A stretch of DNA of 58,557 bases from Thermoplasmatota archaeon (GTDB lineage: Archaea; Thermoplasmatota; E2; JACPAO01; JAHFTW01), in assembly GCA_049617695.1 (NCBI GenBank), contig JBMZJT010000001.1:1-58557 (forward strand), in the 5' to 3' direction. The notes below the pieces were generated by a model that worked only from the letters and a program-made list of their open reading frames with translations, searched no databases and was not told where the DNA came from. Positions 6,899 through 38,140 of the stretch are shown here, piece by piece. A program made the translations under genes and the position numbers. Position 1 is the first letter of the stretch; each line of letters begins with the position of its first letter.

Positions 6899-6959
6899 GG
6901 TGGGTGAACGACGAGCCCGGTTTGATTTAGGCTTTCTCCCGACTTGGTTGCGCGCTGCA

Positions 6960-7721: not shown

Positions 7722-7745
7722 GGAGGGTCCACTCGGGTCCGTCTC

Positions 7746-8597: not shown

Positions 8598-8663
8598 CGG
8601 CAAACGTTTCGTCTCACGTACAAGTCCATTTTGGACAGTGGATGCAAGCGACGGCACGTTTTC

Positions 8664-10213: not shown

Positions 10214-10281
10214 ACGCCCCGATATTTCGGATCCAGACCAATCACCTTTTCTTCTCCCCCACCGACTAAATCACCATCACC

Positions 10282-12609: not shown

Positions 12610-12670
12610 CGACTATCAACTGACAAATCCACGAACGGCTAGAAAGGGCAGTTTGCCCTAGGAGTCGTGC

Positions 12671-15600
12671 ATGCGTGGACAAATCATTCCTCTAACGATC
12701 GTGGCAACCTTCGTGCTTGGCACGTTGGCGGCCGCCGCCCCGGCGACCGACAGCCAGATCACTGCCGCCGAGAACGCCCTTGACAACGTCGGTCCCCTCG
12801 GGGAAGACGTGCTTCAGGGCGACTGGGAAGAAAAACAGGAACGCCACCGCTGGTACTACCGCGACGGCGATGTCCTCAACTACGCGCGCGAAGGCCGCAA
12901 CGGCAACTGCTGCGGCTCCTGGTCGTACCTGTACGACCCCATCCAAGACCTGCCCGGCCTGGGCATCACCAGCGGCCCGGTCACCTTTGACTGGGGCACC
13001 ATCACCAACGACTTCGAGCTGGACCGCATCGTCTCGTCCGCGCACATCACGACCGGTGGCAGCACCGATGTCTATGTTGAACTCCTCGACGGCGACACGG
13101 TCATTCCTGGCGCCACCGTTATCCACCAATTCGATGCGCTCGTGTCCAACCAATACGACACGCCCGTCATCAGCCTCCTGACCAACGGCCCCGAATACGT
13201 CTCCCTCGTCGAATTCGACCCGCCAGTCGTCATTGCCGAAGGCACCGACCTCAAGGTCCGCGTGTCTGCCCCGGACCCCGTGCCGACCGACACCCAGCCG
13301 ACCGTCTTCAACTACGGCGCCGGCAGCATCGACAGCTACATTGAGCTCCATGGCAACATGGCGCGCGTCAACGCCTGGACCACGAACAACGACGGCGTCA
13401 CAACCGACTCCTTCCCTCTTGCCCAAGACGCGCCCAGTGAAGATCGCCACATCCGCACCTGGGTGGCGCACGTCAGCGCATTGGGCAGCGACCACACGCC
13501 GGGCCGCACGCCCCTCGACCCCGCCCAGCACGGCGTCCAAGTCCGCATTCTGGACAAGGATGGCAACGACCGCACTGGCATCACCGACATCCGTGTGAAC
13601 ACCCGGATCATCAAGGCCGCCGCCCCCGGCATGAACCTCGTCGAATTCGACATCCAATACCCGGACAACCTGCTCGATGAAGCCGGCAACCCGTACGACG
13701 GTCGCCTCATCATCGAGTTGTACGGTCAAAACCAGCAATGGGTCCACCGCATCCCGGTTGCCATCGCTGGCGCCCAAGTGGAGCTGGACCTGGCTGAATT
13801 TGAAGATGCGACCAAGACCATCCTCACGGGCGAGGACACCACGTTCCTCTTCGAGTTGCGCAATGGCGGCATCGTTCCCGATGACGTCATCATCACCGGC
13901 GATGAACTCAATGGCTGGAGCCTCGACGTGTTGGTGGATTCCATCAACTTGTCTCCTGGCGAAAGCCGCGTGTTCCCCATTACGATTCAGCCTCCGGCTA
14001 GCGGCCTGAGTGGCGACTTCCAAAGCTTTGACATCAAGGCCATCAGCAGCCGGACGGGCCAAACCGACACCGAGACGGTCACCGTCATCCTGACGGACAT
14101 TGAAACGAACGGCGTCGATTTGTTGGCCAGTCAATTGGAGACCGTCCAAATTTCGGCCGGTCAGACCAAGAGCATTGGCTTGACGATCAAGAACCTCGGC
14201 AACAGCGCTGAGGACTTCAGCCTCAGCACCGCTGGCGCGCCCCTTGGCTGGAAGGCCAAGCTGAGTCCGTCCAGTACGGAACTGGGTGCCAAGAGCCAGA
14301 GCGGTACCCTGCTGACTGTCACGGCGCCCGAAGATGCCCAACAGGGTGACAAATTCGCCTTGACCGTCACCGTGCGCAGCATCGTGGACAACACCATCAA
14401 GGACACCATCATCGTGCCCTACGAAGTGTTCTTCCGCGAGGACTTCACCCTTGAAGTGAGCCACGAAGCCATTGCCGGTGAATTCCAGAACTACATCACC
14501 ACCTTGGCAGACATGCAGGCGTTCTCGGACACCAACAGTCTGGTCCCTGCGCCCGGCATTCACACCCTGCGCGACGAAGGAACCGATGGCGACACGGCTG
14601 ATTACGCCAACACGGCCACGGTTCCCTGCTCGCCCCTGACCGTCGCAGGCGTTCGCCCCTGCCTCGATGCCAACCCTGGCTCCAACTGGGATGGCCGTGG
14701 CGACCCGGACATTGACTACGACCAATCCACACTGTTCCGCCTGGTCCTGACCAACCATGGCAACCGCGAGGACACCGTGCGCTTGACGCCCAACTGGGTC
14801 TTCGACGGCGCTTGGGAATCTCGCGACGTGGCCGAGTGCGAAGAGCGCGATGGCGGCAACACCGATGGTGTCCCTGATGGCTGGCGCTTCCGCTACTGGG
14901 AGGCCGGCACGCCCCTGCCGCCTGCCCTCGATGGCCCCTACGGCATGACCGATTCCAACAGCCACGACGAGAACCCCGCCGGCGGTCTTGGCAACCGCCG
15001 CCTGTCTGCAGACATCCGTACGGTGGACTTGGAAGCGGGCGAAGAGAAAATCATCTGGGTGGAGCTTGGCTGGCAAATGGTCAAGCGCATGGACGACTCG
15101 GACAACCAGAACACGGACAGCCTTGCAAATTCCGTGTGCACAGAAGGCACGGTCCAATCCGGTGCCGGCACCCGCATGGGTGGTGGCGCCTCCGACGGCG
15201 GTGACTACACGGACGCCACCAAGAACGCCGTCGTCAAGTTCACCGCCGAAAGCCTGCGCGACTTGACCAAGGTGCAAGACCTCTACGTCCGCGCCCACTA
15301 CGAACCCGATGGGTCCCAGGTGCGCGACGGCAGCCAACGCTACTCTGGCCAACACAACCAAGTCTACTTGGGTCTGGACACGGCGGACTACACCAACCCG
15401 GAACAGATTGGCGACCTCAATGTGCACCTCACCAAGGGCACCGAAGAGGAACGCACGGCGGACTTCCACCTGCGCGTCGTCAATGCCGGCAACGAACAGG
15501 ACACCATCCGCGTCGAGATTCCGATTGACACGGACGCCTACGAGTACTTCATCTCGGAAGCGGCCGCCGAACCCGGCGTCGTGACGGCAAACCGCGTGGA

Positions 15601-18124
15601 CCACAACCCCGGCAACCCTCGGGCCGTCGGCTGCACCGACCCTGCTGGCAAGTCCTTCATGGACTGCACTCTCGGTGCCTTCGACGAGATTGACTTCAAC
15701 GTCAACGTCCGTGCCAAGCTCGACAAGGTCCCCATTGGACAAATCCACACCTTGCAAGTGCGGGCAACCAGCCTGGACAGCCTCCAGGTGGCCGGCGGCG
15801 CCGTGACCAGCCTCGTGACGCTCCAAGCCTTGGCAACCGGAACCCATGCCTTTGCCATCACGGAGCCTGTCGTCGCCGATGGTATCCACGATGTCGATGT
15901 CGTTGCAGGGGAAACCTTCCGCGTTCCCTTCGTCATCCAAAACCAGGGCACCAGTTTCGACAACTACCAAGTCGATCTGCTCGAACAACCTCCGGCAGAC
16001 AGTGGCTGGGAAGGCATCATCGGCTTCAACAGCCCACAATTCGTGGCCGCTGGCAAGGACCATGTTGGCTTCCTGACGGTCGCTGCGCCGGAAGATGCCC
16101 AAGTCGGTGATTCGGAGACCTTCCGTGTTCGCGTCGCCAGCCTGGATGGCGTCGATGTGCCCCAACGCACCCTGCGCATCCAAGCCAATGTCGTGGCCGC
16201 ACCGGCCGGCATCGAACTGGTCGCCGATCCGATTGAAATCATTGGATTCCCGGGCAGCACCGTCGATGTCACGTACAAGGCGACGCGCACCAGTGGTCTT
16301 GCCACAAACGTCGACTTTGCCTTGGACGAAGACGCGCTTCCCAACGGATGGAGTGTCGTCGGTGACGCAACGCCAGCCGCCGTCGATTACGACGTCAACG
16401 GCCAAGCGACGTACACGTTCCAAATCCAAGTGCCGAGTGAAGCAATCGGCAGCAGCCGCTTGCCGGTCACGGCCACGGCGACGGACAGCAACGACAACGA
16501 AGCACGTGCGCAAGCGGTCATCAACCTCGACAGCTCTGTCTTCGGGGTCCGCTTGAGCAGTCCTGAAGACTTCGAAGCCGAAGAATTGACCACGAACGTT
16601 GTGGCTGGATCCAAGGTCGAAGTGCCTGTCCGCGTCCAGAACCTGGGCGGCGGCGTCGATCGCATCGCCTTGACAACGGAGCCGCTGCCGGAAGGCTGGC
16701 AGGTCATCTTTAGTGAAGGCAACCCCGACGCGGCAAGCTTCCAGCCATTCGAAGCACGCAACGTCATCGTGACTGTCGTGGCACCGGAAGGCGTTCCCGC
16801 TGGCCAAGGCATCGACGTGGTGCTCGTCGGCACCAGTACGGGTGATGTGACGCGCACGGACAACTTCGTGATCAAGGTCCGCACCGGCCAATCGATTCTC
16901 GAAGTCGGTGTCCCGACGGCGCCCACGCGCTACGTCGCGCCGCTCGAAGAGGTTGTGTACAACTTCGCCGTGCGCAACAACGGCACCGTGCGTGACGAGA
17001 TCACCTTCGGTGCGGGTCTCTCGGCAGCGTACGAAGACTTGCTCCAGGTGTCCTTCAACCCGGCGAGTGCAAACCTGGGCCCTGGTGAAAGCGCCAGTGT
17101 CACGGCGCGGCTGACGGTTCCTGAAGGCTTCCTGTCGGGTGCGGTCATTCCCATCAAGCTGCAAGCCACCAGTGATGGACCGTTCCTCAATGCCTTTGGC
17201 GAATCCTCCGTCGAAGTGCGGCTGCTCGAACACCGCACCCTGGACATTGATAACGATGGCAACCCGGAGTACGCCGTTGACCGCAACCGTGACGGCAGTG
17301 ACGGATTCGAAGACTACACGGATCCCGTCGCCGGAGGCAAAGCCAGTGCATCGATTGACATGAGCCAGTTCTTGACGCCGGAAGCGATCGATGACTGGAC
17401 CGTTCTCGTCACGGACAATGGCACGACGGTGAGCGTCTTCGCCTACAGCTTCGACCTGACTGGCGACGGCCGCATCGACCACTTCATCGACGATGACCAA
17501 GACAACCTGCCCGACACGTTCTGGGATCCCCACACCAACGGCCGCGACGACTTGGAAATTACGTACGATGTCACCAACGATGGCGTGCGTGAATACTTCG
17601 TCGACGTCAACAGCGACGGTCTGCTCGACGTCTGGTACGACATCACCACTGGCCAAGTCGGCCAACTTCTGAAGGTCGACGTCGATGGCGATGGTGCCCC
17701 CGACTTCGTGGTGGACCTCGATGGCGATGGCATGCAAGATGATGGCGAACCCGTGCTCTTTGGTAGCGACGGTCGCATCACGAAGATCACGCAGAGCCTC
17801 GACGTCAACGGCGACGGCCGCCCGGATTTGGTCGTCGATGAAGACGGCGACGGCATTCCGGACTACTTCGTCCCCGCCGGCAAGACTCGTGGTGTCGCGA
17901 TTGTCCTGGAAGACGTCAACGGCGACGGCGTGGAAGACTGGACCTACGACGCCAACAACGACGGCCGCCGCGACAGCTACTACGACCCGGTGACCGGCCA
18001 AACGGGCAGCATCGACACGGGCAGTGAATTCATCGACGGCCTGAGCCGCTACTGGTACGTCCCGACGCTTTTCGCGCTCGTCACCGTCCTGTTCGTCGTC
18101 CTTGTCGTGGTGACCCGGAGGTAA
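12671..18124 (+). CDS. giant (1817 aa) cell-surface protein with multiple NEW3/CARDB-like domains, a C-terminal Ca-binding DxDxDG repeat region and a C-terminal membrane anchor
   Basis: AGGAG-type SD lies 8 nt upstream of the ATG. Signal peptide MRGQIIPLTIVATFVLGTLAAAAPA. A recurrent domain signature is present (TVTAPEDAQQGD, TVAAPEDAQVGD, VVAPEGVPAGQG, LTVPEGFLSG). Twelve DxDxDG loops are present. The tail is YWYVPTLFALVTVLFVVLVVVTRR. Confidence 0.85.
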   Translation: MRGQIIPLTIVATFVLGTLAAAAPATDSQITAAENALDNVGPLGEDVLQGDWEEKQERHRWYYRDGDVLNYAREGRNGNCCGSWSYLYDPIQDLPGLGITSGPVTFDWGTITNDFELDRIVSSAHITTGGSTDVYVELLDGDTVIPGATVIHQFDALVSNQYDTPVISLLTNGPEYVSLVEFDPPVVIAEGTDLKVRVSAPDPVPTDTQPTVFNYGAGSIDSYIELHGNMARVNAWTTNNDGVTTDSFPLAQDAPSEDRHIRTWVAHVSALGSDHTPGRTPLDPAQHGVQVRILDKDGNDRTGITDIRVNTRIIKAAAPGMNLVEFDIQYPDNLLDEAGNPYDGRLIIELYGQNQQWVHRIPVAIAGAQVELDLAEFEDATKTILTGEDTTFLFELRNGGIVPDDVIITGDELNGWSLDVLVDSINLSPGESRVFPITIQPPASGLSGDFQSFDIKAISSRTGQTDTETVTVILTDIETNGVDLLASQLETVQISAGQTKSIGLTIKNLGNSAEDFSLSTAGAPLGWKAKLSPSSTELGAKSQSGTLLTVTAPEDAQQGDKFALTVTVRSIVDNTIKDTIIVPYEVFFREDFTLEVSHEAIAGEFQNYITTLADMQAFSDTNSLVPAPGIHTLRDEGTDGDTADYANTATVPCSPLTVAGVRPCLDANPGSNWDGRGDPDIDYDQSTLFRLVLTNHGNREDTVRLTPNWVFDGAWESRDVAECEERDGGNTDGVPDGWRFRYWEAGTPLPPALDGPYGMTDSNSHDENPAGGLGNRRLSADIRTVDLEAGEEKIIWVELGWQMVKRMDDSDNQNTDSLANSVCTEGTVQSGAGTRMGGGASDGGDYTDATKNAVVKFTAESLRDLTKVQDLYVRAHYEPDGSQVRDGSQRYSGQHNQVYLGLDTADYTNPEQIGDLNVHLTKGTEEERTADFHLRVVNAGNEQDTIRVEIPIDTDAYEYFISEAAAEPGVVTANRVDHNPGNPRAVGCTDPAGKSFMDCTLGAFDEIDFNVNVRAKLDKVPIGQIHTLQVRATSLDSLQVAGGAVTSLVTLQALATGTHAFAITEPVVADGIHDVDVVAGETFRVPFVIQNQGTSFDNYQVDLLEQPPADSGWEGIIGFNSPQFVAAGKDHVGFLTVAAPEDAQVGDSETFRVRVASLDGVDVPQRTLRIQANVVAAPAGIELVADPIEIIGFPGSTVDVTYKATRTSGLATNVDFALDEDALPNGWSVVGDATPAAVDYDVNGQATYTFQIQVPSEAIGSSRLPVTATATDSNDNEARAQAVINLDSSVFGVRLSSPEDFEAEELTTNVVAGSKVEVPVRVQNLGGGVDRIALTTEPLPEGWQVIFSEGNPDAASFQPFEARNVIVTVVAPEGVPAGQGIDVVLVGTSTGDVTRTDNFVIKVRTGQSILEVGVPTAPTRYVAPLEEVVYNFAVRNNGTVRDEITFGAGLSAAYEDLLQVSFNPASANLGPGESASVTARLTVPEGFLSGAVIPIKLQATSDGPFLNAFGESSVEVRLLEHRTLDIDNDGNPEYAVDRNRDGSDGFEDYTDPVAGGKASASIDMSQFLTPEAIDDWTVLVTDNGTTVSVFAYSFDLTGDGRIDHFIDDDQDNLPDTFWDPHTNGRDDLEITYDVTNDGVREYFVDVNSDGLLDVWYDITTGQVGQLLKVDVDGDGAPDFVVDLDGDGMQDDGEPVLFGSDGRITKITQSLDVNGDGRPDLVVDEDGDGIPDYFVPAGKTRGVAIVLEDVNGDGVEDWTYDANNDGRRDSYYDPVTGQTGSIDTGSEFIDGLSRYWYVPTLFALVTVLFVVLVVVTRR
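17243..17990 (+). repeat. array of 12 FG-GAP/VCBS-like DxDxDG calcium-binding loops in six pairs (protein-level repeat within the giant gene)
   Basis: The loops, read from the translation, are DIDNDGNPE, DRNRDGSDG, DLTGDGRID, DDDQDNLPD, DVTNDGVRE, DVNSDGLLD, DVDGDGAPD, DLDGDGMQD, DVNGDGRPD, DEDGDGIPD, DVNGDGVED and DANNDGRRD. Confidence 0.7.
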
Positions 18125-18128
18125 ATCG

Positions 18129-19784
18129 ATGCGCATCCAGCTTGTTGCCCTGATGACGGCGCTGGCGCTGCTTCCCGCTGCGCAGGCGCAAGAAGCCCAG
18201 GATCCAATCGTCCATGACGTCCGCCTGATGCTCGGCGATGCCGAAATTTCGAGTATCGACATCATCGACGATCACGCCAAGGCGTTCACCTACGAAGTCG
18301 ATGTCGAAGACCCAGACTTTGGTGGAGAAATCCTGCTCGTTGAATTGGTCGTGCACCTGCCCAACGGGGCGCTCACCTTGCGCCCGACCCTGGCAGAACG
18401 CGATGGGGACATCGAAACTTGGAGTGGCAGCCACCCCGTCGACGACGTGCGCCTCGTGGTCGGCACCCACCCCGCCGAGCTACGCGTCTTCGATCGCAAC
18501 GGAGGCCAGACCTTCTGCGCCATCGAAGGCAACCAAGGCTCCTGCTTCAATGGGCCCGACGTGGACAGCCTCGGCGTCACGTGGACGTCTCAGAGCAGCT
18601 ACCAGCTGGGCCTGGACTTGCTGGACGCCGATGCCGATGAAACCCAAGTTCTTGGACCCGGAGGCAAAATCCGTCTCGACGTCGGTGTCAGCAGTGCCAC
18701 GCAAGATGCCCCCTGGGCATTGCAACATGTCCGCTTCGTCAACGAATACGGCGAATTCACCACGGCTGCCAAGAGTCTCCGCGTCCCCTACGTCATCGGC
18801 CCGCAGGATTTGCAGCAAGGCATGCAGGCCCTGACGATCACGGCAACTGACCGCGCAGGCCGAGCTGTCAGCCTCGAAGTCGATGCCGATGTGGATACGA
18901 AGGCACCGCTGGTCGATGTCGCGCTGCCGGCCTTGACCTACCAAGGTGTCCCCTTCGACGTGCGCGTCCAAGTTGATGACGCCAACGACTACACGGCAAC
19001 CGCCATCCTCGATGATGTGCGGATCAACCAGACCGGTGGCCCGGGCGTAGGATTGGTGCCGTTCACATTCGAACGCGATTTGCTGGGCAACGGCAGTCTG
19101 CTCGTTCGTGTTGTTGACGTTTATGGCAACCAGTTCCTGCGCCAAGTCAACGTGACAACGGTGGAAGCTCGCACCGATTCGACGGTTCGCGTGGAAGTCA
19201 CGCCGAGCCATCCGCTGCCGCAAGAGAACGTCACCGTGCGCTTCACCGCCCAGCAACAAAGCGGTGTTGCGACGTTGCCATTCAACCTCACCTTGACCGT
19301 CGATGGCCTGGGCGTCGTTTGCTGCGATGAAGGCGTCGATGTACCGCTCAACGTGCCATACGAGTATGCGTTCAGCCGCTTCTACCTGCCCGGGCAATAC
19401 GCATTCAATGCAACGATTGCCCCGGTCCCTGGCGTCAACGAAACGGACGACAGCGACCAAACCGATGTCGGCTTCTTCGAGGTGTTCATGGGAAAGGTGG
19501 TCTACAATGATGAGACCTACTTCATGCGCCTTGGCGACGGCGGCATCGAACCCAGCCATGCCGTCAGCCCAGGTGGTAGCCTGTATGACGTCACGGCGCG
19601 GGAGCAGAATGGTGGCACGGTGTTTGCTTTCACGGCCAAAGGCGTCGACCTGTACTGGGATCCGCTCATGCGCGTCACGGACCTGACGCCGGAAGAGACG
19701 GAGCCTGGCGAAGAGAGTCCCGGGGTGCCGGTCGCCCTCGTGCTGCTCCTGGTTGGCATGCTTGCCTGGGCGCGTCGCAGGTAA
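18129..19784 (+). CDS. secreted surface protein with C-terminal SPG-hydrophobic-RRR signal
   Basis: Starts 4 nt after the giant gene stop. Signal peptide MRIQLVALMTALALLPAAQA. The tail is TPEETEPGEESPGVPVALVLLLVGMLAWARRR. Confidence 0.8.
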   Translation: MRIQLVALMTALALLPAAQAQEAQDPIVHDVRLMLGDAEISSIDIIDDHAKAFTYEVDVEDPDFGGEILLVELVVHLPNGALTLRPTLAERDGDIETWSGSHPVDDVRLVVGTHPAELRVFDRNGGQTFCAIEGNQGSCFNGPDVDSLGVTWTSQSSYQLGLDLLDADADETQVLGPGGKIRLDVGVSSATQDAPWALQHVRFVNEYGEFTTAAKSLRVPYVIGPQDLQQGMQALTITATDRAGRAVSLEVDADVDTKAPLVDVALPALTYQGVPFDVRVQVDDANDYTATAILDDVRINQTGGPGVGLVPFTFERDLLGNGSLLVRVVDVYGNQFLRQVNVTTVEARTDSTVRVEVTPSHPLPQENVTVRFTAQQQSGVATLPFNLTLTVDGLGVVCCDEGVDVPLNVPYEYAFSRFYLPGQYAFNATIAPVPGVNETDDSDQTDVGFFEVFMGKVVYNDETYFMRLGDGGIEPSHAVSPGGSLYDVTAREQNGGTVFAFTAKGVDLYWDPLMRVTDLTPEETEPGEESPGVPVALVLLLVGMLAWARRR

Positions 19785-29186: not shown

Positions 29187-29231
29187 CGGCGACCCCGTGC
29201 CTTTTTCCTTCCTTCTCCTGCTCACCGCCTG

Positions 29232-30599
29232 ATGCGACGCAGTGGTGCGGTGGCCCTTGCTTTGATGATGGCCATGATTGCGACTCCGGCCGAGGCCCAA
29301 GTCAGCAGTTGTGGCGACGGCTTCGAGTTGTTCATGCGCAACCCGGACATGGTGCCCCAATCCGACGGGAAATTCCATGTCAGTGGCGACTTCTTCGTCC
29401 AATTCCAAGTGATTGGCGACAACGCCGACCAAATCGAGACCTTCGCCTTCAGCGTCGGCTTGCCCCCGGAAAACCCGGAATCCATCTGCGATTTGCCCGT
29501 GTGGCCCGCCGGCTTGATGCTGGAAGCGTACAAGGTGGATCAAGACAAGTCGGATGGCTTCTTCATCCTCATGCGCACCAGTGGGCAGACCACGCCGCAG
29601 AACACGGACTTGACCGTCGCCGTGCACGGCTACGATGCCAGCGGCCAGGAAGTTGCTCGCTTCTGGGGGACGGCGGTCGTGGAATCCTGCCCAGGCCAGA
29701 CCCAAGGTGGATGCAGCACCATCAAAGATGAACAAATTCCGTGGCCCGTTTTGCTTCCCGGCGACGGCGAAGTGGCCCTCGTCGATGGTTTCACCGTGGA
29801 ATTTGCCGAGCCCCTCGAATCGTACACTGTGTTCCTCAACGGCGAGGACATCACGGATCAAATGCAGGACTGGGAAGGCCGCCAATGGGATGCGGATACC
29901 TACTACGACTACGGTCCCGCCGGCGTCTTTGCCACGGCCACGCCCATGTGCACGCTCCCGCCGCCGGTCCAAACGTGTGTCACCAAGCCCGGTCCGGCCC
30001 TGCAATGGACGCAGCGCCCCATCAACGACGACGACGTCATCCGCGTCGAAGCGATCGATCTGGCTGGCAACGTCGCCAAGAAGGAAATCCACGTCGGCAG
30101 CAGTGTCGCAGGCGGCACCATCGCCGATGGCTTGCCCCTCTTGACCATGACCTTCGACGAGACCTCCAAAATGGTCGAACCCGGCAAGACCGCCATCTAC
30201 CAGGCTCGCATGGAGAACACCGGCGGCGGCACGGGCCATCCCCTCGTCTCGGCCATCATGCCCGATGCCAACTGGACGTTCGACTGGTTCCCCGGGCACA
30301 AACCAGTCGATGCGGCCAGCGCCGAGACCCAAGAACTCAACGTGCACGTCCCCGCCACGGTGACGCCCGGCATCTACGAAGTCATCGCCGTCATGGAATA
30401 CCAACGCGGCCAAGGAGACGAACGCATCGAATTCCCCTTGGAAGTGCTCGTCGGAGGCGCCCCCGGGGCGGCGAATACGACCGCGCAGCCCGATGACAGC
30501 GACGATGGGGAGGAGTCGCCGGCACCGCTTCTCGTGCTCCCAATTCTCGCCGCGGCGGCCCTGCGACGCAAGCAACGCGCGCACAGCAACCCTTTTTGA
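29232..30599 (+). CDS. secreted Cys-containing surface protein, paralogue 1, with C-terminal SPA-hydrophobic-RRK signal
   Basis: Signal peptide MRRSGAVALALMMAMIATPAEA. The tail is DDSDDGEESPAPLLVLPILAAAALRRKQRAHSNPF. It is clearly alignable with 30621..31935. Confidence 0.8.
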   Translation: MRRSGAVALALMMAMIATPAEAQVSSCGDGFELFMRNPDMVPQSDGKFHVSGDFFVQFQVIGDNADQIETFAFSVGLPPENPESICDLPVWPAGLMLEAYKVDQDKSDGFFILMRTSGQTTPQNTDLTVAVHGYDASGQEVARFWGTAVVESCPGQTQGGCSTIKDEQIPWPVLLPGDGEVALVDGFTVEFAEPLESYTVFLNGEDITDQMQDWEGRQWDADTYYDYGPAGVFATATPMCTLPPPVQTCVTKPGPALQWTQRPINDDDVIRVEAIDLAGNVAKKEIHVGSSVAGGTIADGLPLLTMTFDETSKMVEPGKTAIYQARMENTGGGTGHPLVSAIMPDANWTFDWFPGHKPVDAASAETQELNVHVPATVTPGIYEVIAVMEYQRGQGDERIEFPLEVLVGGAPGAANTTAQPDDSDDGEESPAPLLVLPILAAAALRRKQRAHSNPF

Positions 30600-30620
30600 A
30601 CTGAGCCCTGTGGCTCGGGC

Positions 30621-31382
30621 ATGGTGATGATGCGTGTCCTGGGCGTTGCAGCCCTCTTGGCCCTGGCGATGGTGCCGCAAACGTCGGCCCAGATGGCCTT
30701 CGAACAGTGTGGCGACATCCAGTTGATCTTCCGGAATCCCGACCTGCAACGGGAGAACGACGGCAACATCCACGCCCAAGGCAGCTTCTTTGCCCAATTC
30801 CAGGCCATCGGCCCCGACGCCGACAAGATCACGTTCTTCGGCTTCAGCTTCGGCCCCGCGCCAAGCCCCATCCAAGATGACAGTGGCGTCTGCGATACGC
30901 CTCCGGGCACCTGGCTGACGGGTGCTTACATCCTGAACTACCGCGCCGACACGAACCCCGATGACGGCTTCTTCATCAACCTCCAAACGGACTTGGTCCC
31001 CGATGGCGCCTACACGGCCGCCGTCCACGCCTATGATGCCAACAACCAGGAATTGGCTCGCGCCTGGACCAACGCCCTCGTCGACAACTGCGACGGCGAC
31101 CCGCCGGCCCGCTGCGACGGCGACACGGCCCAGCACGCCAACCAGGACCAAACGGCGCCCTGGCCCATCCTCCTGCCCGGCGACGGCGACATCGAAGCCG
31201 CCCCGGACACGCCCGACGGCGCCACGCTGACCATCGAATTCGCCGAAGCCCTGAGCGACTTGCAAGTCACGATCAACGGCAACGACGAAACCCAGAACCT
31301 TACCGAATGGCCGGGTCGCCAATGGGACGACGACTTGATTCCCGGTTACGGCCCCGCCGGCCTCGGCTCCATTCTCGGGTGA
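30621..31382 (+). CDS. surface protein paralogue 2, N-terminal fragment (gene interrupted by a frame change)
   Basis: Signal peptide MVMMRVLGVAALLALAMVPQTSA. It is collinear with paralogue 1 up to ...GYGPAGL, then reaches a TGA at 31380..31382. Confidence 0.65.
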   Translation: MVMMRVLGVAALLALAMVPQTSAQMAFEQCGDIQLIFRNPDLQRENDGNIHAQGSFFAQFQAIGPDADKITFFGFSFGPAPSPIQDDSGVCDTPPGTWLTGAYILNYRADTNPDDGFFINLQTDLVPDGAYTAAVHAYDANNQELARAWTNALVDNCDGDPPARCDGDTAQHANQDQTAPWPILLPGDGDIEAAPDTPDGATLTIEFAEALSDLQVTINGNDETQNLTEWPGRQWDDDLIPGYGPAGLGSILG

Positions 31383-31395
31383 AGATCTGGTTCGC

Positions 31396-31935
31396 GTGGT
31401 CGCCACCGATGTGGCCGGCAACATCGCGATCAAGGAACTGCACATCGGCAGCGGCGCCGCAGGTGCCATTACGGAAGAACTTCCGAACCTGCAAATCAGT
31501 GTCGACGAGCCCACGAAGACCCTCGGCGCTGGCGACACGGCCATTTTCAAGTTCACCTTGAACAACATCGGCGGCACCACGGCCCACCCGTACAACGGTC
31601 AGGACGTCCCTGAAGGCTGGGGTGCCAGTTGGTTCCCGTCCCACGTCCCCACTGGCCCCGGTGACAAGAATACCCAGGAGCTCAACGTCGAAATTCCGGC
31701 CGAAGCGGCTCCTGGCACCTACAAGGTCAACGCCACGATCTTCTACGAACGCGGCGGCCAAGAAGAGACGCGGACCTTCCCCCTGACGATCAACGTCGGC
31801 AGCGGCGGCGCGCTCCAAGCCGAAGCCCCGGGTGAAGAGGAAGACGAACCCACCGCGGAAGAGAGTCCGGGTGTCGGCGTCGTGGCATTGTTGGCCGTTT
31901 TGGCGGTCGCGATGCTGCGCCGCAAGTCGGCTTGA
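31396..31935 (+). CDS. surface protein paralogue 2, C-terminal fragment with SPG-hydrophobic-RRK signal
   Basis: This frame is open from 31339. EDLVRVVATDVAGNIAIKELHIGS aligns with DDVIRVEAIDLAGNVAKKEIHVGS of paralogue 1. The tail is EESPGVGVVALLAVLAVAMLRRKSA. Confidence 0.65.
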   Translation: MVATDVAGNIAIKELHIGSGAAGAITEELPNLQISVDEPTKTLGAGDTAIFKFTLNNIGGTTAHPYNGQDVPEGWGASWFPSHVPTGPGDKNTQELNVEIPAEAAPGTYKVNATIFYERGGQEETRTFPLTINVGSGGALQAEAPGEEEDEPTAEESPGVGVVALLAVLAVAMLRRKSA

Positions 31936-34641: not shown

Positions 34642-35445
34642 CTAGCTTTGAGACAGGAGCGACGCTTCGGTTTCGACACCGGCACGGTAACCAGCGGCTA
34701 GCTCGCGCTCCGGTTCGTTGCGCGGACCGTCGATGCCGTCCGGCAAGACCCAGATTTCCAGGGGTGTCCGTTCGCGGGGGCCGGCATAGTAGCTGGCCAC
34801 GAGCCGGTGCAGGTTTCCGACGTCTTTGGCACACGCATGGCAGACCGCCATGCTTTCGCCGCCGGCAAAGCCCACTTCGACGAGGCCTCGCTCAGGGTGC
34901 GCACAGGTGCGGCAGCGGTGCTGCTGCCATTCGATGCCGAGCTTGTCTGCGATGAAGGTCCACCAGGAATCAGGCACATGGGGTTGGTCGCCGCTGCACG
35001 TGACGCCGGTGTCGGCGAAGAAGTGGAGGCTGGATTCCTTGGCCATTTTGCGGTAGGCCATCAGGAGGACTTGCGGGTCGTCGTGATTCTGGACGCCGAG
35101 CATGCAGGCCCGGTGGACTTGTCCGCGCATCAAGTAGAAGCGGCGGCGGCCGCCGACTTTGTGATCCACGAGGCGGGGCACGGATTCCAGTTGGGCCAGT
35201 TGCATGCTTTGCCACACGGCGCCGACAATGCCTCGGTCCCGTTTCGTCGTGAAGCCGGCTTTACCTTGGGCCAATTTTTCGAGGCCCGCTTGCACCTTGG
35301 CCAGGGGCTTGGGGGTGCCGTGCGGCATGGCGGGCAGGGCACGCAACGGGTCGTCGGCGAGGCTGCGGATGCGACCAAGAAACAGGTCTTGGGCGGTGCC
35401 TGCGGCGGTTCGGATGCTGGTGCGCTTCTTCTTTCGCTTGGCCAT
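34642..35445 (-). CDS. hypothetical 267-aa protein, basic N-terminus and CxxC...CxxC pair; last gene of the archaeosortase operon
   Basis: The ATG at 35445 shares one base with the upstream TGA (TGATG). N-terminus MAKRKKKRTSIR; CRTCAHPERG...VCHACAKD. I recognise no family. Confidence 0.6.
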   Translation of the reverse strand: MAKRKKKRTSIRTAAGTAQDLFLGRIRSLADDPLRALPAMPHGTPKPLAKVQAGLEKLAQGKAGFTTKRDRGIVGAVWQSMQLAQLESVPRLVDHKVGGRRRFYLMRGQVHRACMLGVQNHDDPQVLLMAYRKMAKESSLHFFADTGVTCSGDQPHVPDSWWTFIADKLGIEWQQHRCRTCAHPERGLVEVGFAGGESMAVCHACAKDVGNLHRLVASYYAGPRERTPLEIWVLPDGIDGPRNEPERELAAGYRAGVETEASLLSQS

Positions 35446-36176
35446 CAGGAAGTCTCCAAGTGGGTGGGCCCGATGCGGGCCAGGACATAGAACGGTCCGG
35501 CAAGGACATAGAAGGCCATGAAGCCAAGCATGCCCCACACGGGGATGTCGCCCGAATCGACGATGTGGCCAATGACCGTTGCGAGAATCAGGAGGACGGC
35601 CACGATGCCGAGCCAGCCACGCAGCTTGGGGTAGCGGATGCGGCTGATCATCAGGAGTCCGCTCACGGCCCCCACGGCAAGAAGCCACGTCACGTCCAAC
35701 CGGAGCAGGACTGCGCTGACGATGAGCAGGGCACCGCCAGGACTCGACAGGCCACTGAAGTAGCGGCTGTCCTTGGTTTCGCGCAGGGCTTCAAAGCGAG
35801 CCAACCGAAGCGTGACGGCGACGAGGAAAAACGCCCCGACGGCGACGGTGGCAGGTTGGAATTCAACGGATGCCAGCAACACCGCAGGGGCCACGGCGAA
35901 GGTCACGACGTCGCTCAATGCATCCAGGAAGCCACCCAGGGGGCCTCCGCCGCCACCAAGGCGGGCCACGGCGCCATCGGCCCCGTCCAGCAGGATGCCA
36001 ACGAGGATCAGGATGCCTGCCAGGGTGGGGTCTTCACGGGCCACAAGAATGGCAATGAGGCCCACAACGGCGTTGGACATGGTGACGACGTCGGCGGGTC
36101 GGATGTCGCGGGTGATGCGTTCCAGGCCGTCCCATTCGTCGCGCAATGCGGCGTTCAGGTATGCTTTCAATCCCAA
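35445..36176 (-). CDS. pssA: CDP-alcohol phosphatidyltransferase, archaetidylserine synthase-like
   Basis: TTG start. The signature DGAVAR-LGGGGGPL-G-GFL-D-ALS-D (D-G-x2-A-R-x8-G-x3-D-x3-D) is present, and the protein is polytopic. Confidence 0.8.
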   Translation of the reverse strand: MGLKAYLNAALRDEWDGLERITRDIRPADVVTMSNAVVGLIAILVAREDPTLAGILILVGILLDGADGAVARLGGGGGPLGGFLDALSDVVTFAVAPAVLLASVEFQPATVAVGAFFLVAVTLRLARFEALRETKDSRYFSGLSSPGGALLIVSAVLLRLDVTWLLAVGAVSGLLMISRIRYPKLRGWLGIVAVLLILATVIGHIVDSGDIPVWGMLGFMAFYVLAGPFYVLARIGPTHLETS

Positions 36177-36802
36177 GCCGCGACCTCGCTTCGGCCTGCT
36201 TGGACGCGGTCGCCCACTTGGACGGTCCAGGTCAAGGTGCCCTCGGGAACCAGCAAGTCGCAGCGGCTGCCAAGGCGGATGAGGCCGAGCTTCTCGCCCT
36301 TGGCCACCGTGTCGCCCTTGGTGGCGTAGGGTACGATGCGGCGGGCCACGGCGCCGGCGATTTGGATGACCTTGATCTCGCCAAGCTCGGTCTTCATGTG
36401 GGTGATGACGCGCTCGTTGCGGTCACTGTCCTTGTTGAATGCCGGCACATGTTTGCCGGGAATGTGGGTCACGCTCACGACGTTGCCCGGCACGGGAAAT
36501 CGGTTGACGTGCACGTCGAGGGGGCTCATGAAAATGGAAAGCCGATCGACGCGCCCCAGATCCGGATCATCGATCTGATCCACGCGGACGACCTTGCCGT
36601 CGGCGGGGCTGCAGACGCCGGAGGCAATCGCGCGTTCGGGATCTCGGAAGAAGTACCAGAAACTCATCGCCAGGAAGAAGGGCACCATGCTGGCGGCGAC
36701 CATCCAGGGTTGGCCGAGGGTTGGGCCGAAGCTGGCCATGAGAATCGCGATGCTCACGGGGATGACGATCCAATTGGCGCCGCCGTGGGCGATCTTGAGC
36801 AC
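36167..36802 (-). CDS. psd: phosphatidylserine (archaetidylserine) decarboxylase-like proenzyme
   Basis: GTG start, 211 aa. It has an N-terminal membrane segment, an FMSPLDVHVNR block and a C-terminal LGS self-cleavage-type motif (GLIRLGSRCDLLVP). Confidence 0.75.
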   Translation of the reverse strand: MLKIAHGGANWIVIPVSIAILMASFGPTLGQPWMVAASMVPFFLAMSFWYFFRDPERAIASGVCSPADGKVVRVDQIDDPDLGRVDRLSIFMSPLDVHVNRFPVPGNVVSVTHIPGKHVPAFNKDSDRNERVITHMKTELGEIKVIQIAGAVARRIVPYATKGDTVAKGEKLGLIRLGSRCDLLVPEGTLTWTVQVGDRVQAGRSEVAAWD

Positions 36803-36838
36803 AGGGGTTCGACACCGGGCTGCCTGAAAGGGTTGGCG

Positions 36839-38140
36839 CTATTCCAGCAACTCGTCTAGGGTGTCGACGGTCTCGCCGGCATCTGGTTGGGTGGCCGCGG
36901 TTGGCTCGGGGCGGCGCCGGCCGATTTTGAGGGTCCGTTCAATGGGGCCGTCGCGATCGGGCAAATCCAAGACGTCCACGAGGCTCTTGAAGAACTCCGG
37001 GAACCATTTGAACACGGCGAAGGCGATGCCCACCATGGCAAGCAGGCTGCCGCCTTTGCCAATGGCATTGTGCATCGTCCAGAAGCTGCTGTGGCCTTGG
37101 CCGTAGAACCAAATGATGCCGGTGTTGCGCACCAGATTCAGCACGTAGACGACGGCGCCGACGATGACGCTGAACTGGATTTTGCGCTTCAAGGGCGCAT
37201 TGGTGCCAAAGAAGAGGCCGACGAAGAGCATGATGCTCTGGATGGCAGTGCAGGCCAGAATGATGCTCACGGGCACGACGCCGTCAGCGCTGTTGTTGTA
37301 GAACAGAAGATCCTGCCACAGGCTACCATCGCTTTGCGGGTAGCTGCGCACGGAGGAAAAGCCGGGCCCGTTGCCCGGCGGCAGGGTGCGGCAGTATTCG
37401 CCGACCAAGTCGCCGCGGTTCGGGCTGCAGTATTTGTCGGGATAGAAGAACCAGACCGGGCCGGCCGGGTCGACCTCATCGACGATGAATTGGAGGTTGG
37501 CTTTGTCGCCTTGACCGAACAGGTCGAGCATCCATTTCGTGTGGTCGCTGACGACGTGAATCAGCCAGACACGCAGGAATTGAATCTTGGCGATGACGAA
37601 GTAGCTGCCCGCAGCAATGAATGCCGTGACGTTCAGGAAGTGGACGGCTTCGTTGCGCACGCCGCGCGCCAGGCTGAGCCATTGATGGTAGGCGAGGTAG
37701 ACGAAGAAGTAGACGCCGATGATGGCGAAGGCGAAGTTGACGTAATCCTGGTCTTCCTTGATGAAGAGGTCCTTCGCCGTCAAGGCCCAGTAGAAGGCAA
37801 AAAGAATCCAGCCGACCATCGTGATGCGCTGGGTCCAGGGTTGTCGGATGAAGCCGAATCCCAGGAGTGCCAAACCAGTGAACAGCGGCACGAGGGTCCA
37901 TTGTTCCCAGCCGGGGCTCAGGGTGACCTTGTTGCTGATGTAGCCATGTTGGGCCTGCAACAGGAGGCCGGCGATGACCATGGCCGTCGCGATGGAGCCA
38001 AAGAACAGCGTGATGTGGAGCGGCTTGTAGCGGGATTCCGCCTCCGTAGAGGCTTCTTCCGCGTAGGGGTGTGGGCGGGGCTTGCGCTCCCGGTCCTTGG
38101 GGCCTAGGATGCGCTGCATGATCGAGGCCTCGCCTGCCAC
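36839..38140 (-). CDS. archaeosortase (exosortase/archaeosortase family transpeptidase)
   Basis: 433-aa polytopic protein. It has ordered Cys, Arg and His contexts (IILACTAIQSIMLF, VLNLVRNTGIIWFY, FWTMHNAIGKGG) and a large extracytoplasmic loop before the Cys helix. The start may be the internal M8 at 38119. Confidence 0.75.
   Translation of the reverse strand: MAGEASIMQRILGPKDRERKPRPHPYAEEASTEAESRYKPLHITLFFGSIATAMVIAGLLLQAQHGYISNKVTLSPGWEQWTLVPLFTGLALLGFGFIRQPWTQRITMVGWILFAFYWALTAKDLFIKEDQDYVNFAFAIIGVYFFVYLAYHQWLSLARGVRNEAVHFLNVTAFIAAGSYFVIAKIQFLRVWLIHVVSDHTKWMLDLFGQGDKANLQFIVDEVDPAGPVWFFYPDKYCSPNRGDLVGEYCRTLPPGNGPGFSSVRSYPQSDGSLWQDLLFYNNSADGVVPVSIILACTAIQSIMLFVGLFFGTNAPLKRKIQFSVIVGAVVYVLNLVRNTGIIWFYGQGHSSFWTMHNAIGKGGSLLAMVGIAFAVFKWFPEFFKSLVDVLDLPDRDGPIERTLKIGRRRPEPTAATQPDAGETVDTLDELLE

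What the first reader, a model, noticed from the sequence alone, without database searches (positions are those of the whole stretch)
34642..38140. Archaeosortase / archaetidylserine decarboxylase / archaetidylserine synthase operon extended by a translationally coupled, unrecognisable CxxC protein
Seen: four tightly packed minus-strand genes. Gene 36839..38140 is a polytopic protein with ordered Cys, Arg and His contexts (ILACTAIQS, NLVRNTGIIW, WTMHNAIGKG), as in exosortase/archaeosortase transpeptidases. Gene 36167..36802 is PSD-like with a C-terminal LGS motif. Gene 35445..36176 has the full CDP-alcohol phosphatidyltransferase signature and overlaps the decarboxylase stop by 10 nt. Gene 34642..35445 starts at an ATG that shares a base with the synthase TGA (TGATG). 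Established: in Haloferax volcanii, archaeosortase ArtA-dependent C-terminal processing and lipid anchoring of PGF-CTERM proteins depends on PssA and PssD homologues, and these genes are neighbours in some other archaea. Inference: the fourth gene (267 aa, MAKRKKKRTS N-terminus, CRTC...CHAC) is co-expressed with this pathway and could be an undescribed component. At least seven candidate substrates lie in the same window.
Basis: partly seen in the sequence, partly recalled or inferred. Interest (0 to 1): 0.75.

Follow-up and report, generated by a model that had tools for sequence, protein, structure and literature searches.

The report
Archaeosortase lipid-anchor operon plus orphan gene
This is a genuine archaeal gene cluster for clipping surface proteins and attaching them to a membrane lipid, and its fourth gene is a real, well-folded protein of unknown function that sits next to these genes only in one archaeal lineage, so it is at most a lineage-specific helper.

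Summary
Four tightly packed minus-strand genes encode archaeosortase A (TIGR04125, 132.7 bits against a cutoff of 75), a phosphatidylserine-decarboxylase-type enzyme, a CDP-alcohol phosphatidyltransferase with the complete motif, and a 267-aa protein ("X") whose ATG overlaps the synthase stop (TGATG). The artA-pssD-pssA part is a new member of a known arrangement (Methanosarcina; functional link shown in Haloferax volcanii).

X is a real gene: GC3 is 0.78, and relatives range from 36 to 86% identity. It is soluble and basic and matches nothing in Pfam, NCBIfam, PHROGs or PDB sequences. A confident AlphaFold model (pLDDT 92) has no Foldseek match.

- X is the N-terminal domain of an unannotated ~500-aa, two-domain Thermoplasmatota family. 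The C-terminal domain appears to have been lost repeatedly in this lineage.
- The "CxxC" feature is a family-wide C-x-H...C-x-x-C site. It is intact here but lost in several short relatives.
- pssD-pssA-X is contiguous in 20 of 20 loci of the high-GC lineage (gaps -14 to +41 nt, SD-like motif upstream of X).
- None of 84 loci of the wider family has artA, pssD or pssA nearby.
- The whole neighbourhood, including unrelated oxidoreductase genes, is syntenic in the lineage, so adjacency alone is weak evidence.

X is therefore co-expressed, but it is not a general archaeosortase component. A lineage-specific accessory role and a passenger role are about equally likely.

The parts
36839..38140 (-). 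artA: archaeosortase A, 433 aa. It is a polytopic membrane protein. Compared with the ~280-300-aa ArtA of Methanosarcina and Haloferax, it has an N-terminal extension and a ~70-aa Cys-containing loop (about residues 216-286).
   Evidence: TIGR04125 132.7 bits (cutoff 75) and TIGR04178 signature 59.2 bits (cutoff 23). Seven hydrophobic peaks. C297, R338, H357 and K362 are invariant in 15 orthologues. No Pfam hit at E<0.1, but the L003 orthologue carries PF09721.
36167..36802 (-). pssD: phosphatidyl/archaetidylserine decarboxylase-type proenzyme, 211 aa, with LGS (S179) as the predicted pyruvoyl-forming site.
   Evidence: PF02666 E=1.5e-43. NF003685 202.7 bits (cutoff 183). TIGR00164 and NF038088 are below their cutoffs. 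S179, H98, H113 and D68 are invariant in 19 orthologues.
35445..36176 (-). pssA: CDP-alcohol phosphatidyltransferase, probably archaetidylserine synthase, 243 aa (241 aa if the TTG at 36170 is the start).
   Evidence: PF01066 37.9 bits (cutoff 22). The best NCBIfam hits are archaetidylserine/phosphatidylserine synthase models, all below their cutoffs; TIGR00473 scores 106.1 against 107. The motif DGx2ARx8Gx3Dx3D at residues 67-89 is invariant. Eight hydrophobic peaks.
34642..35445 (-). X: 267-aa soluble basic protein (pI 9.5). It is the N-domain-only form of an unannotated ~500-aa Thermoplasmatota family.
   Evidence: GC3 0.78 and no transmembrane segment. 22 close homologues. Profile search gives 178 hits, mostly 480-535 aa, with X matching their N-terminal ~265 aa. 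AF2 pLDDT 92.1, pTM 0.87. No Pfam, NCBIfam, PHROGs, PDB or Foldseek match.
35386..35445 (-). Conserved Lys/Arg-rich N-terminal tail of X (MAKRKKKRTSIRTAAGTAQD), partly predicted as disordered.
   Evidence: T9, R12, T13, G16 and Q19 are invariant in 19 sequences. pLDDT is below 50 for residues 1-11.
34828..34917 (-). Putative zinc-binding hairpin region of X (C177, C180, H182 ... C203, C206).
   Evidence: C-x-H ... C-x-x-C is invariant in the wider family. It is intact in the window protein and lost in P0007, P0009, P0012, P0015 and P0022. Metal binding is inferred, not shown.
35454..35457 (-). Shine-Dalgarno-like GGAG, 8 nt upstream of the X start, inside the 3' end of pssA.
   Evidence: Sequence read. 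Comparable GGAG/GAGG motifs lie 6-10 nt upstream of the X start in related loci.
6008..7180 (-). Candidate ArtA substrate. C-terminus: ...DAPGLPILGLGVVLVAVALLRRR.
7746..8600 (-). Candidate ArtA substrate (~285 aa). Signal peptide MRALRWLLVPLLVAAPAQA. C-terminus: ...VPSAGALVLPGLLIALLARRR. The start coordinate is approximate.
10270..12609 (+). Candidate ArtA substrate, a choice-of-anchor T family surface protein. C-terminus: ...KSPGAPVVLLVLALLAVAGTRRFRP.
   Evidence: NF041740 76.9 bits (cutoff 70)
12662..18124 (+). Candidate substrate, a 1820-aa surface protein. Its C-terminus has a hydrophobic stretch followed by RR but no PG motif (...YWYVPTLFALVTVLFVVLVVVTRR).
18114..19784 (+). Candidate ArtA substrate. 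C-terminus: ...EESPGVPVALVLLLVGMLAWARRR.
29187..30599 (+). Candidate substrate. C-terminus: ...EESPAPLLVLPILAAAALRRKQRAHSNPF.
31339..31935 (+). Candidate ArtA substrate. C-terminus: ...EESPGVGVVALLAVLAVAMLRRKSA. This is the best PGF-CTERM model score in the window.
   Evidence: TIGR04126 15 bits (cutoff 24.5)

Best explanation
**Shown**
- The locus is a genuine artA-pssD-pssA cluster.
- By analogy with H. volcanii, PssA would make archaetidylserine from CDP-archaeol and serine. PssD would decarboxylate it to archaetidylethanolamine. ArtA would cleave the C-terminal signal (here [S/A]-P-G-[V/A/L], hydrophobic stretch, RR) of secreted proteins and join them to that lipid.
- A fourth gene, X, sits in the same transcription unit and is translationally coupled to pssA. 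The stop and start overlap, and an SD-like motif lies inside pssA.
- X is a soluble, basic, probably zinc-binding protein with no recognisable fold. It descends from a stand-alone ~500-aa, two-domain Thermoplasmatota protein that is not linked to this pathway in other lineages.

**Inferred**
- In the ancestor of this high-GC lineage the gene moved behind pssA and acquired a lineage-specific role with PssA/PssD at the cytoplasmic face of the membrane.
- That role could be binding the anionic membrane surface or the synthase through its invariant Lys/Arg tail, to assist or regulate head-group synthesis.
- After that shift, the C-terminal domain and in some cases the zinc ligands became dispensable and were lost repeatedly.
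- X is not a universal archaeosortase component.
For: **Gene identities**

**Conserved placement of X**
- pssD-pssA-X is colinear on one strand in 20 of 20 lineage loci, down to 36% identity of X.
- In the 18 loci measured, the pssA-X spacing is -14 to +41 nt, and it overlaps or abuts in 10. GGAG/GAGG motifs lie upstream of the X start.
- Insertions occur between artA and pssD (L005, L016, L021, L110) and between X and the POR genes (L001, L005), but never inside pssD-pssA-X.

**Changed constraints within the lineage**
- The N-terminal tail is near-invariant in the lineage.
- Short forms are scattered among long forms in a neighbour-joining tree.
- C-domains are present right after the N-domain in 11 lineage loci. 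They are absent from the window and from the other short-form loci.
- Zinc ligands are lost in five short forms.
- This pattern fits a functional shift after the gene joined the operon.

**X is a real folded protein**
- pLDDT is 92 and GC3 is 0.78.
Against: - None of 84 loci of the wider family has artA, pssD or pssA within the fetched flanks. There the gene looks monocistronic. Its neighbours are information-processing or miscellaneous genes: Trm5/TYW2, DUF835, RFC small subunit, TyrRS and primase.
- The whole neighbourhood is syntenic across the lineage, including functionally unrelated POR genes on the other strand. Adjacency may therefore reflect shared ancestry only.
- X has no membrane-binding feature beyond a basic tail. 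A basic tail plus a zinc knuckle suits nucleic-acid binding equally well.
- There is no structural or sequence homology to any lipid enzyme or sortase accessory protein.
- No expression, interaction or genetic data exist.
Confidence: 0.4

Rival explanations
1. Operon passenger. X keeps the still unknown housekeeping function of its ~500-aa family, perhaps binding nucleic acid or another polyanion through the basic tail and zinc knuckle. It merely landed downstream of pssA in the lineage ancestor. Compact genome organisation then produced the overlapping junction, and there is no functional link to lipid anchoring.
For: - The wider family is never next to artA, pssD or pssA (0 of 84 loci). It sits beside RFC small subunit, TyrRS, primase and Trm5/TYW2 genes.
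- The whole region is syntenic in the lineage, including unrelated POR genes.
- X is soluble, has pI 9.5 and has no transmembrane segment.
Against: - A housekeeping protein would not be expected to lose half its length repeatedly, and its zinc ligands as well, only in the lineage where it is coupled to pssA.
- Insertions have broken other junctions in the region but never pssA-X.
- In the wider family the neighbours are on the opposite strand, so they give no functional lead either.
Confidence: 0.38
2. One reading: X is an undescribed, general component of the archaeosortase/PGF-CTERM anchoring pathway.
For: - X is co-oriented with artA-pssD-pssA and translationally coupled to pssA in all lineage loci.
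Against: - The X family was recovered only from Thermoplasmatota-type records, plus one record labelled Altiarchaeales.
- It is unlinked to the pathway genes outside one lineage.
- The Methanosarcina and Haloferax systems are described with three genes only (PMC7157517).
- artA itself is separated from pssD by inserted genes in several loci, whereas X follows pssA.
Confidence: 0.05
3. X is a DNA-binding regulator of the operon (zinc ribbon plus basic tail), autoregulated by being encoded as the last gene.
For: - Basic pI, a C-x-H...C-x-x-C site and a conserved Lys/Arg tail.
Against: - No helix-turn-helix or known archaeal regulator domain in Pfam or NCBIfam.
- No Foldseek similarity to regulators. 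The best hit for the long form is a TetR protein at E=0.57, TM 0.12.
- The zinc ligands are lost in five orthologues that keep the operon position.
- The ancestral form is a 500-aa stand-alone protein.
Confidence: 0.08
4. X is a decaying remnant (pseudogene-like truncation) of the long-form gene.
For: - The C-terminal domain is missing, and the convergent POR-beta gene ends 6 nt after the X stop.
Against: - The N-domain is intact and full length, with no frameshift. It has gene-like GC3 and 60% mean column identity over 19 sequences.
- Independent assemblies give 263-272-aa proteins.
- The AF2 model is compact and confident.
Confidence: 0.03

Closest known systems
artA-pssA-pssD gene cluster of Methanosarcina spp., and the ArtA/HvPssA/HvPssD system of Haloferax volcanii (Abdul-Halim et al. 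2020, PMC7157517)
   Same: - The same three protein families are present: archaeosortase A, a PssA-type CDP-alcohol phosphatidyltransferase and a PSD-type decarboxylase.
- The genes are adjacent and co-oriented.
- Secreted proteins with a tripartite C-terminal signal are encoded nearby.
   Different: - The gene order here is artA-pssD-pssA.
- ArtA is 433 aa, against 277-303 aa, and carries an extra loop and extensions.
- The sorting signals read PG[V/A/L] or variants rather than PGF, and they fail the TIGR04126 cutoff.
- PssA and PssD score below the 'protein sorting system' NCBIfam models NF038086 and NF038088.
- A fourth coupled gene is present.
Unannotated ~480-535-aa two-domain protein family of Thermoplasmata/Thermoplasmatota (for example P0043, P0170, P0181; all 'hypothetical protein')
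   Same: - X aligns over its whole length with their N-terminal ~265 aa.
- Shared motifs are GVQxxDxP, C-[TS]-G, PP and C-x-H...C-x-x-C, plus a basic N-terminus.
   Different: - X lacks the ~230-aa helical C-terminal domain.
- X is operonic with pssA, whereas the wider family is stand-alone and unlinked to lipid or sortase genes.
Exosortase/archaeosortase family signature (TIGR04178) and H. volcanii ArtA catalytic residues Cys173/Arg214/Arg253 (as summarised in PMC9263693)
   Same: - The full-length signature matches.
- C297 and R338 are invariant and spaced 41 residues apart, the same spacing as Cys173 and Arg214.
   Different: - The equivalent of Arg253 could not be assigned. K378 lies at about the expected offset.
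- An invariant His357 is present, but its role is unknown.

Membership tests
Archaeosortase A (ArtA, TIGR04125) | Score above the curated family cutoff | tested here: met
   132.7 bits against a cutoff of 75, E=1.6e-38, matched in two stretches.
Archaeosortase A (ArtA, TIGR04125) | Exosortase/archaeosortase signature domain (TIGR04178) containing the conserved Cys and Arg | tested here: met
   59.2 bits against a cutoff of 23, covering model positions 1-97 of 97. C297 and R338 are invariant in 15 orthologues and spaced 41 residues apart, as for HvArtA C173/R214.
Archaeosortase A (ArtA, TIGR04125) | Third residue critical in H. volcanii (Arg253) | tested here: inconclusive
K378 lies near the expected offset, and H357 and K362 are invariant.
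Archaeosortase A (ArtA, TIGR04125) | Polytopic membrane protein | tested here: met
   Seven hydrophobic peaks by Kyte-Doolittle analysis.
Archaeosortase A (ArtA, TIGR04125) | Cognate PGF-CTERM substrates in the genome | tested here: inconclusive
   Seven ORFs carry a C-terminal hydrophobic stretch plus basic residues, and four have PG[L/A/V]. None reaches the TIGR04126 cutoff (best 15 bits against 24.5).
Archaeosortase A (ArtA, TIGR04125) | Proteolytic/transpeptidase activity on substrates | not testable with these tools
   Requires C-terminal peptide mapping or genetics.
Phosphatidyl/archaetidylserine decarboxylase (PF02666) | Family model above cutoff | tested here: met
   PF02666 149.2 bits (cutoff 22). 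NF003685 202.7 bits (cutoff 183).
Phosphatidyl/archaetidylserine decarboxylase (PF02666) | Self-cleavage G-S site that yields the pyruvoyl group | tested here: met
   LGS at residues 177-179. S179 is invariant in 19 orthologues. Cleavage itself was not tested.
Protein-sorting-system archaetidylserine decarboxylase (NF038088) and synthase (NF038086) | Score above the curated cutoffs of the sorting-specific models | tested here: not met
   NF038088 scores 163.7 against 240. NF038086 scores 96 against 200. The genes are therefore not filed as members of these haloarchaeal-type subfamilies, despite their linkage to artA.
CDP-alcohol phosphatidyltransferase (PF01066) | Family model above cutoff and the motif D-G-x2-A-R-x8-G-x3-D-x3-D | tested here: met
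   37.9 bits against a cutoff of 22. The motif at residues 67-89 is invariant in 19 orthologues.
Archaetidylserine synthase (NF038087 / TIGR04217 / TIGR00473) | Score above curated equivalog cutoffs (serine specificity) | tested here: not met
   107.5 against 240, 98.6 against 200, and 106.1 against 107. Serine specificity is inferred from the best hits and from the overlapping gene junction (possible translational coupling) with the decarboxylase.
artA-pssA-pssD cluster (Methanosarcina type) | Adjacent, co-oriented artA, pssA and pssD | tested here: met
   The arrangement is conserved in all lineage loci with enough upstream DNA.
Zinc-ribbon/zinc-knuckle proteins (for X) | Four conserved Cys/His ligands in two knuckles | tested here: inconclusive
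   C-x-H...C-x-x-C is invariant in the wider family and present in the window protein. It is absent from five lineage orthologues. No Pfam zinc-ribbon model matches.
Any described protein family or fold (for X) | Significant sequence or structure match | tested here: not met
   - Pfam and NCBIfam: no hits.
- PHROGs: no hits.
- PDB sequence profiles: no hits.
- Foldseek against PDB: best E=3.8 for X and 0.57 for the long form.
- Foldseek against BFVD: best E=0.53.

The most novel reading that the evidence does not exclude
The N-domain of this orphan family is a new-fold cytoplasmic partner of archaetidylserine synthase/decarboxylase. It was recruited in one Thermoplasmatota lineage to control the supply of the lipid that archaeosortase attaches to surface proteins. 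That would make it the first accessory factor of the archaeal lipid-anchoring pathway. Repeated shedding of its C-terminal domain would mark the change of function.
Probability: 0.25. Interest if true: 0.7.

Novelty: new variant of a known kind. Interest (0 to 1): 0.45.

Why it matters
ArtA-dependent lipid anchoring is the main way many archaea fix their S-layer and other surface proteins to the cell. Only ArtA, PssA and PssD are known players, and how lipid supply is coordinated with processing is open.

- **If X acts with PssA/PssD:** it would be a first accessory factor and would give a function to a sizeable orphan family with an apparently new fold.
- **If X is only a passenger:** the locus still extends the artA-pssD-pssA linkage to uncultured Thermoplasmatota. 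It also shows a non-PGF variant of the sorting signal and an enlarged ArtA. Current models (TIGR04126, NF038086, NF038088) under-call these features.

Tried and rejected
**Annotation of X and the long form: nothing found**
- Pfam, NCBIfam and PHROGs scans of X, 19 relatives and long-form members gave only noise, for example Copper-fist at E=0.06.
- Profile searches against PDB sequences found nothing.
- Foldseek of both AF2 models against PDB, and of the X model against BFVD, found nothing with E<0.5. The recurring clamp-loader, TetR and PPR rows have TM scores of about 0.1 and were disregarded.

**Searches that failed technically or could not be completed**
- A search for stand-alone C-domain proteins, to separate gene fission from domain loss, failed: 8000 low-complexity candidates were scored and none passed. 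Fission remains untested.
It was repeated with a narrower alignment.
- Haft et al. 2012 and Abdul Halim et al. 2018 are not held in the library. The catalytic residues are therefore cited from a review.

**Ideas considered and rejected**
- A lipid link through geranylgeranyl-reductase-family and UbiA-family neighbours of the wider family. These lie on the other strand or two genes away, occur in only one or two of the context groups seen, and sit among RFC, TyrRS, primase and Trm5 neighbours.
- Trm5, DUF835 and GGR genes near X in the lineage. None was found.
- The sigma-70 promoter/terminator scanner was not used, because it does not apply to archaea.

Full report
**1. Observation**

ORF listing and direct reading confirm four co-oriented minus-strand genes at 36839-38140, 36167-36802, 35445-36176 and 34642-35445.
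- The last gene starts at an ATG whose A is the final base of the pssA TGA (TGATG).
- pssA overlaps the decarboxylase stop by 10 nt if it starts at TTG 36176, or by 4 nt at TTG 36170. The 4-nt overlap matches the ATGA/GTGA junction in most related loci.
- artA and pssD are 36 nt apart.
- All four genes have the third-position GC (0.78-0.83) typical of real genes in this 62-65% GC window.

**2. The three recognisable genes**

*ArtA (433 aa).*
- It passes the archaeosortase A model (TIGR04125, 132.7 bits, cutoff 75) and the exosortase/archaeosortase signature (TIGR04178, 59.2 bits, cutoff 23).
- It has seven hydrophobic peaks.
- The Cys-Arg spacing of 41 residues equals that of the H. volcanii catalytic Cys173 and Arg214.
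- I could not assign the counterpart of Arg253.
- The protein is about 130 aa longer than the Methanosarcina and Haloferax enzymes. It has an N-terminal extension and a ~70-aa Cys-containing loop.

*PssD (211 aa).* It matches PF02666 (E=1.5e-43) and one PSD equivalog above its cutoff. Its LGS serine (S179) is invariant.

*PssA (243 aa).* It passes PF01066 and carries an invariant D-G-x2-A-R-x8-G-x3-D-x3-D motif. Its best NCBIfam hits are archaetidylserine/phosphatidylserine synthases, but all are below their cutoffs. Serine specificity is therefore an inference.

Neither enzyme reaches the cutoffs of the 'protein sorting system' models NF038086 and NF038088.

The link between artA, pssA and pssD is established knowledge. 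The genes are neighbours in Methanosarcina. HvPssA and HvPssD are needed for ArtA-dependent processing and lipidation in H. volcanii, where the genes are not clustered (PMC7157517).

**3. Candidate substrates**

- Seven ORFs in the window end in a hydrophobic stretch followed by RR(R) or RRK.
- Five have clear signal peptides.
- One is a 'choice-of-anchor T' protein above its cutoff.
- The motif before the hydrophobic stretch is [S/A]-P-G-[L/A/V] in four of them and looser in the other three.
- None reaches the PGF-CTERM model cutoff (best 15 bits against 24.5).
- The lineage therefore appears to use a variant signal without Phe.

**4. The fourth gene, X**

- X is soluble (no 19-residue window above 1.1 on the Kyte-Doolittle scale) and basic (pI 9.5).
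- A search of 5.8 billion proteins found only 22 close relatives (39-100% identity over the full-length members). All those with names are 'hypothetical protein' of Thermoplasmatota MAGs.
- The alignment shows strong conservation (60% mean column identity). The conserved elements are an almost invariant Lys/Arg-rich tail (MAKRKKKRTSIRTAAGTAQ), DHKVGGRRRFYL, LGVQNHDDP..LLMAYR.MAK..LHFFA, YAGPxxRxP and AAYRAG.
CRTC occurs only in the nearest relatives, and five orthologues lack the second pair as well.
- AlphaFold2 with this alignment gives a compact α/β model (pLDDT 92.1, pTM 0.87), with only the first 11 residues disordered.
- Foldseek finds nothing in PDB (best E=3.8) or BFVD (best E=0.53).
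- Profile searches of PDB sequences, Pfam, NCBIfam and PHROGs are empty.

**5. X is half of a larger protein**

- A profile search of 1.84 billion representatives returned 178 hits. Most are 480-535 aa, with X matching residues 1 to ~265.
- These long forms also have no Pfam or NCBIfam match.
- They add a ~230-aa helical C-terminal domain. The AF2 model has pLDDT 87.5 and again no Foldseek match.
- Family-wide invariant features are GVQxxDxP, C-[TS]-G, PP and a C-x-H...C-x-x-C site. In the window protein that site corresponds to C180, H182, C203 and C206.
- Within the high-GC lineage both forms occur. tblastn finds the C-domain directly after the N-domain in 11 loci. It finds none in the window or in the other short-form loci.
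- In a neighbour-joining tree of N-domains, short forms fall in at least five places among long forms. This suggests repeated loss of the C-domain. Fission with relocation could not be excluded.

**6. Synteny**

*Within the lineage.*
- Every locus with enough sequence has pssD-pssA-X on one strand, preceded by artA where enough upstream DNA is present: 20 of 20 loci, down to 36% identity of X.
- In the 18 loci measured, the pssA-X spacing is -14 to +41 nt. It overlaps or abuts in 10 of them. A GGAG/GAGG motif usually lies 6-10 nt upstream of the X start. In the window, GGAG lies 8 nt upstream.
- Insertions have occurred between artA and pssD (L005, L016, L021, L110) and between X and the downstream POR genes. 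In L001 the insertion is a SIR2/AbiEi island, and in L005 it is a histidine kinase.
- No insertion lies inside pssD-pssA-X.

*Evidence that weakens the inference.*
- The whole region is syntenic over most of the lineage: periplasmic-binding protein, artA, pssD, pssA, X, POR-beta, POR-alpha, a secreted protein and a CBS protein.
- In 4 contexts found by exact look-up and 80 metagenome loci of the wider family, tblastn finds no artA, pssD or pssA at all.
- In those loci the gene is flanked mostly by opposite-strand genes: Trm5/TYW2 (convergent, with overlapping 3' ends), DUF835, RFC small subunit, TyrRS, primase and a UbiA-family protein. There is no recurrent same-strand partner.
- None of those neighbours is near X in the lineage.

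**7. Interpretation**

*Shown.* A real artA-pssD-pssA cluster, with a real and strongly conserved fourth gene that is co-oriented and has an overlapping start.

*Inferred.* Co-transcription, and translational coupling of X to pssA.

*Excluded for practical purposes.* X as a general archaeosortase-pathway component.

Two readings remain and are about equally likely.
- **(a) Lineage-specific recruitment (0.40).** The changed pattern of constraint supports this reading: an invariant tail, with a dispensable C-domain and dispensable zinc ligands. So does the unbroken pssA-X junction. X would work at the cytoplasmic face with PssA/PssD.
- **(b) Passenger (0.38).** X keeps an unrelated housekeeping role. 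The wider family's contexts and the lineage-wide synteny support this reading.

A regulator role and a pseudogene remnant are minor alternatives. I found no paper that mentions archaeosortase together with Thermoplasmatota or Poseidoniales.

**8. Novelty and score**

- The three-gene cluster is a new member of a known kind.
- The appended orphan domain, the enlarged ArtA and the non-PGF signals make the locus a new variant.
- The orphan family has a confidently predicted fold with no detectable relative. It is the most interesting element, but its connection to lipid anchoring is unproven.
- Interest is 0.45.

Noticed in passing
window 6008-7180, 7746-8600, 10270-12609, 18114-19784, 29187-30599, 31339-31935: The C-terminal sorting signals of this lineage read [S/A]-P-G-[V/A/L] (or SPAP, VPSAG), then a hydrophobic stretch, then RR(R). 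They lack the Phe of PGF-CTERM and fall below the TIGR04126 cutoff, so standard annotation would miss these ArtA substrates.
   Followed up: partly
window 36839-38140 (ArtA residues ~1-45 and ~216-286): ArtA is 433 aa, against ~280-300 aa in Methanosarcina and Haloferax. It has a conserved N-terminal extension and a ~70-aa loop with two Cys (YCSPNRGDLVGEYC). Length and extensions are conserved in orthologues (438-451 aa). No function is assigned.
   Followed up: partly
L001 8810-12797 (GCA_041601615.1 contig JBFIHX010000007.1): A small defence-like island has been inserted between X and the POR genes in one relative. It carries a SIR2_2 protein, an AbiEi_4 antitoxin-like protein and small ORFs. 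This shows where the otherwise conserved neighbourhood tolerates insertions.
   Followed up: no
L029, L051, L054, L063, L065 and about 30 further metagenome loci: In the wider family the long-form gene and a convergent Trm5/TYW2 tRNA methyltransferase gene overlap at their 3' ends by 4-14 nt. A geranylgeranyl-reductase-family gene often lies next. The arrangement is conserved across many contigs of 55-65% GC.
   Followed up: partly
window 30600-31382 and 31339-31935: Two adjacent same-strand ORFs overlap by 44 nt. The second carries the C-terminal sorting signal but has no signal peptide of its own. They may be one surface-protein gene split by a frameshift or an assembly error.
   Followed up: no
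window 6801-9506 (+) versus 7746-9464 (-): A 901-aa stop-free plus-strand ORF is largely an artefact of high GC content. The real genes appear to be a ~285-aa secreted protein on the minus strand (7746 to ~8600) and what looks by eye like a nicotinate-nucleotide pyrophosphorylase gene on the plus strand (~8660-9506). That identity was not checked against any family model.
   Followed up: partly
L005 2671-3174 and L110 203-703: A ~166-aa gene (DUF4760 in L110) lies between artA and pssD on the same strand in some relatives of the lineage. It is absent from the window. Whether the L005 and L110 genes are homologous was not checked.
   Followed up: no
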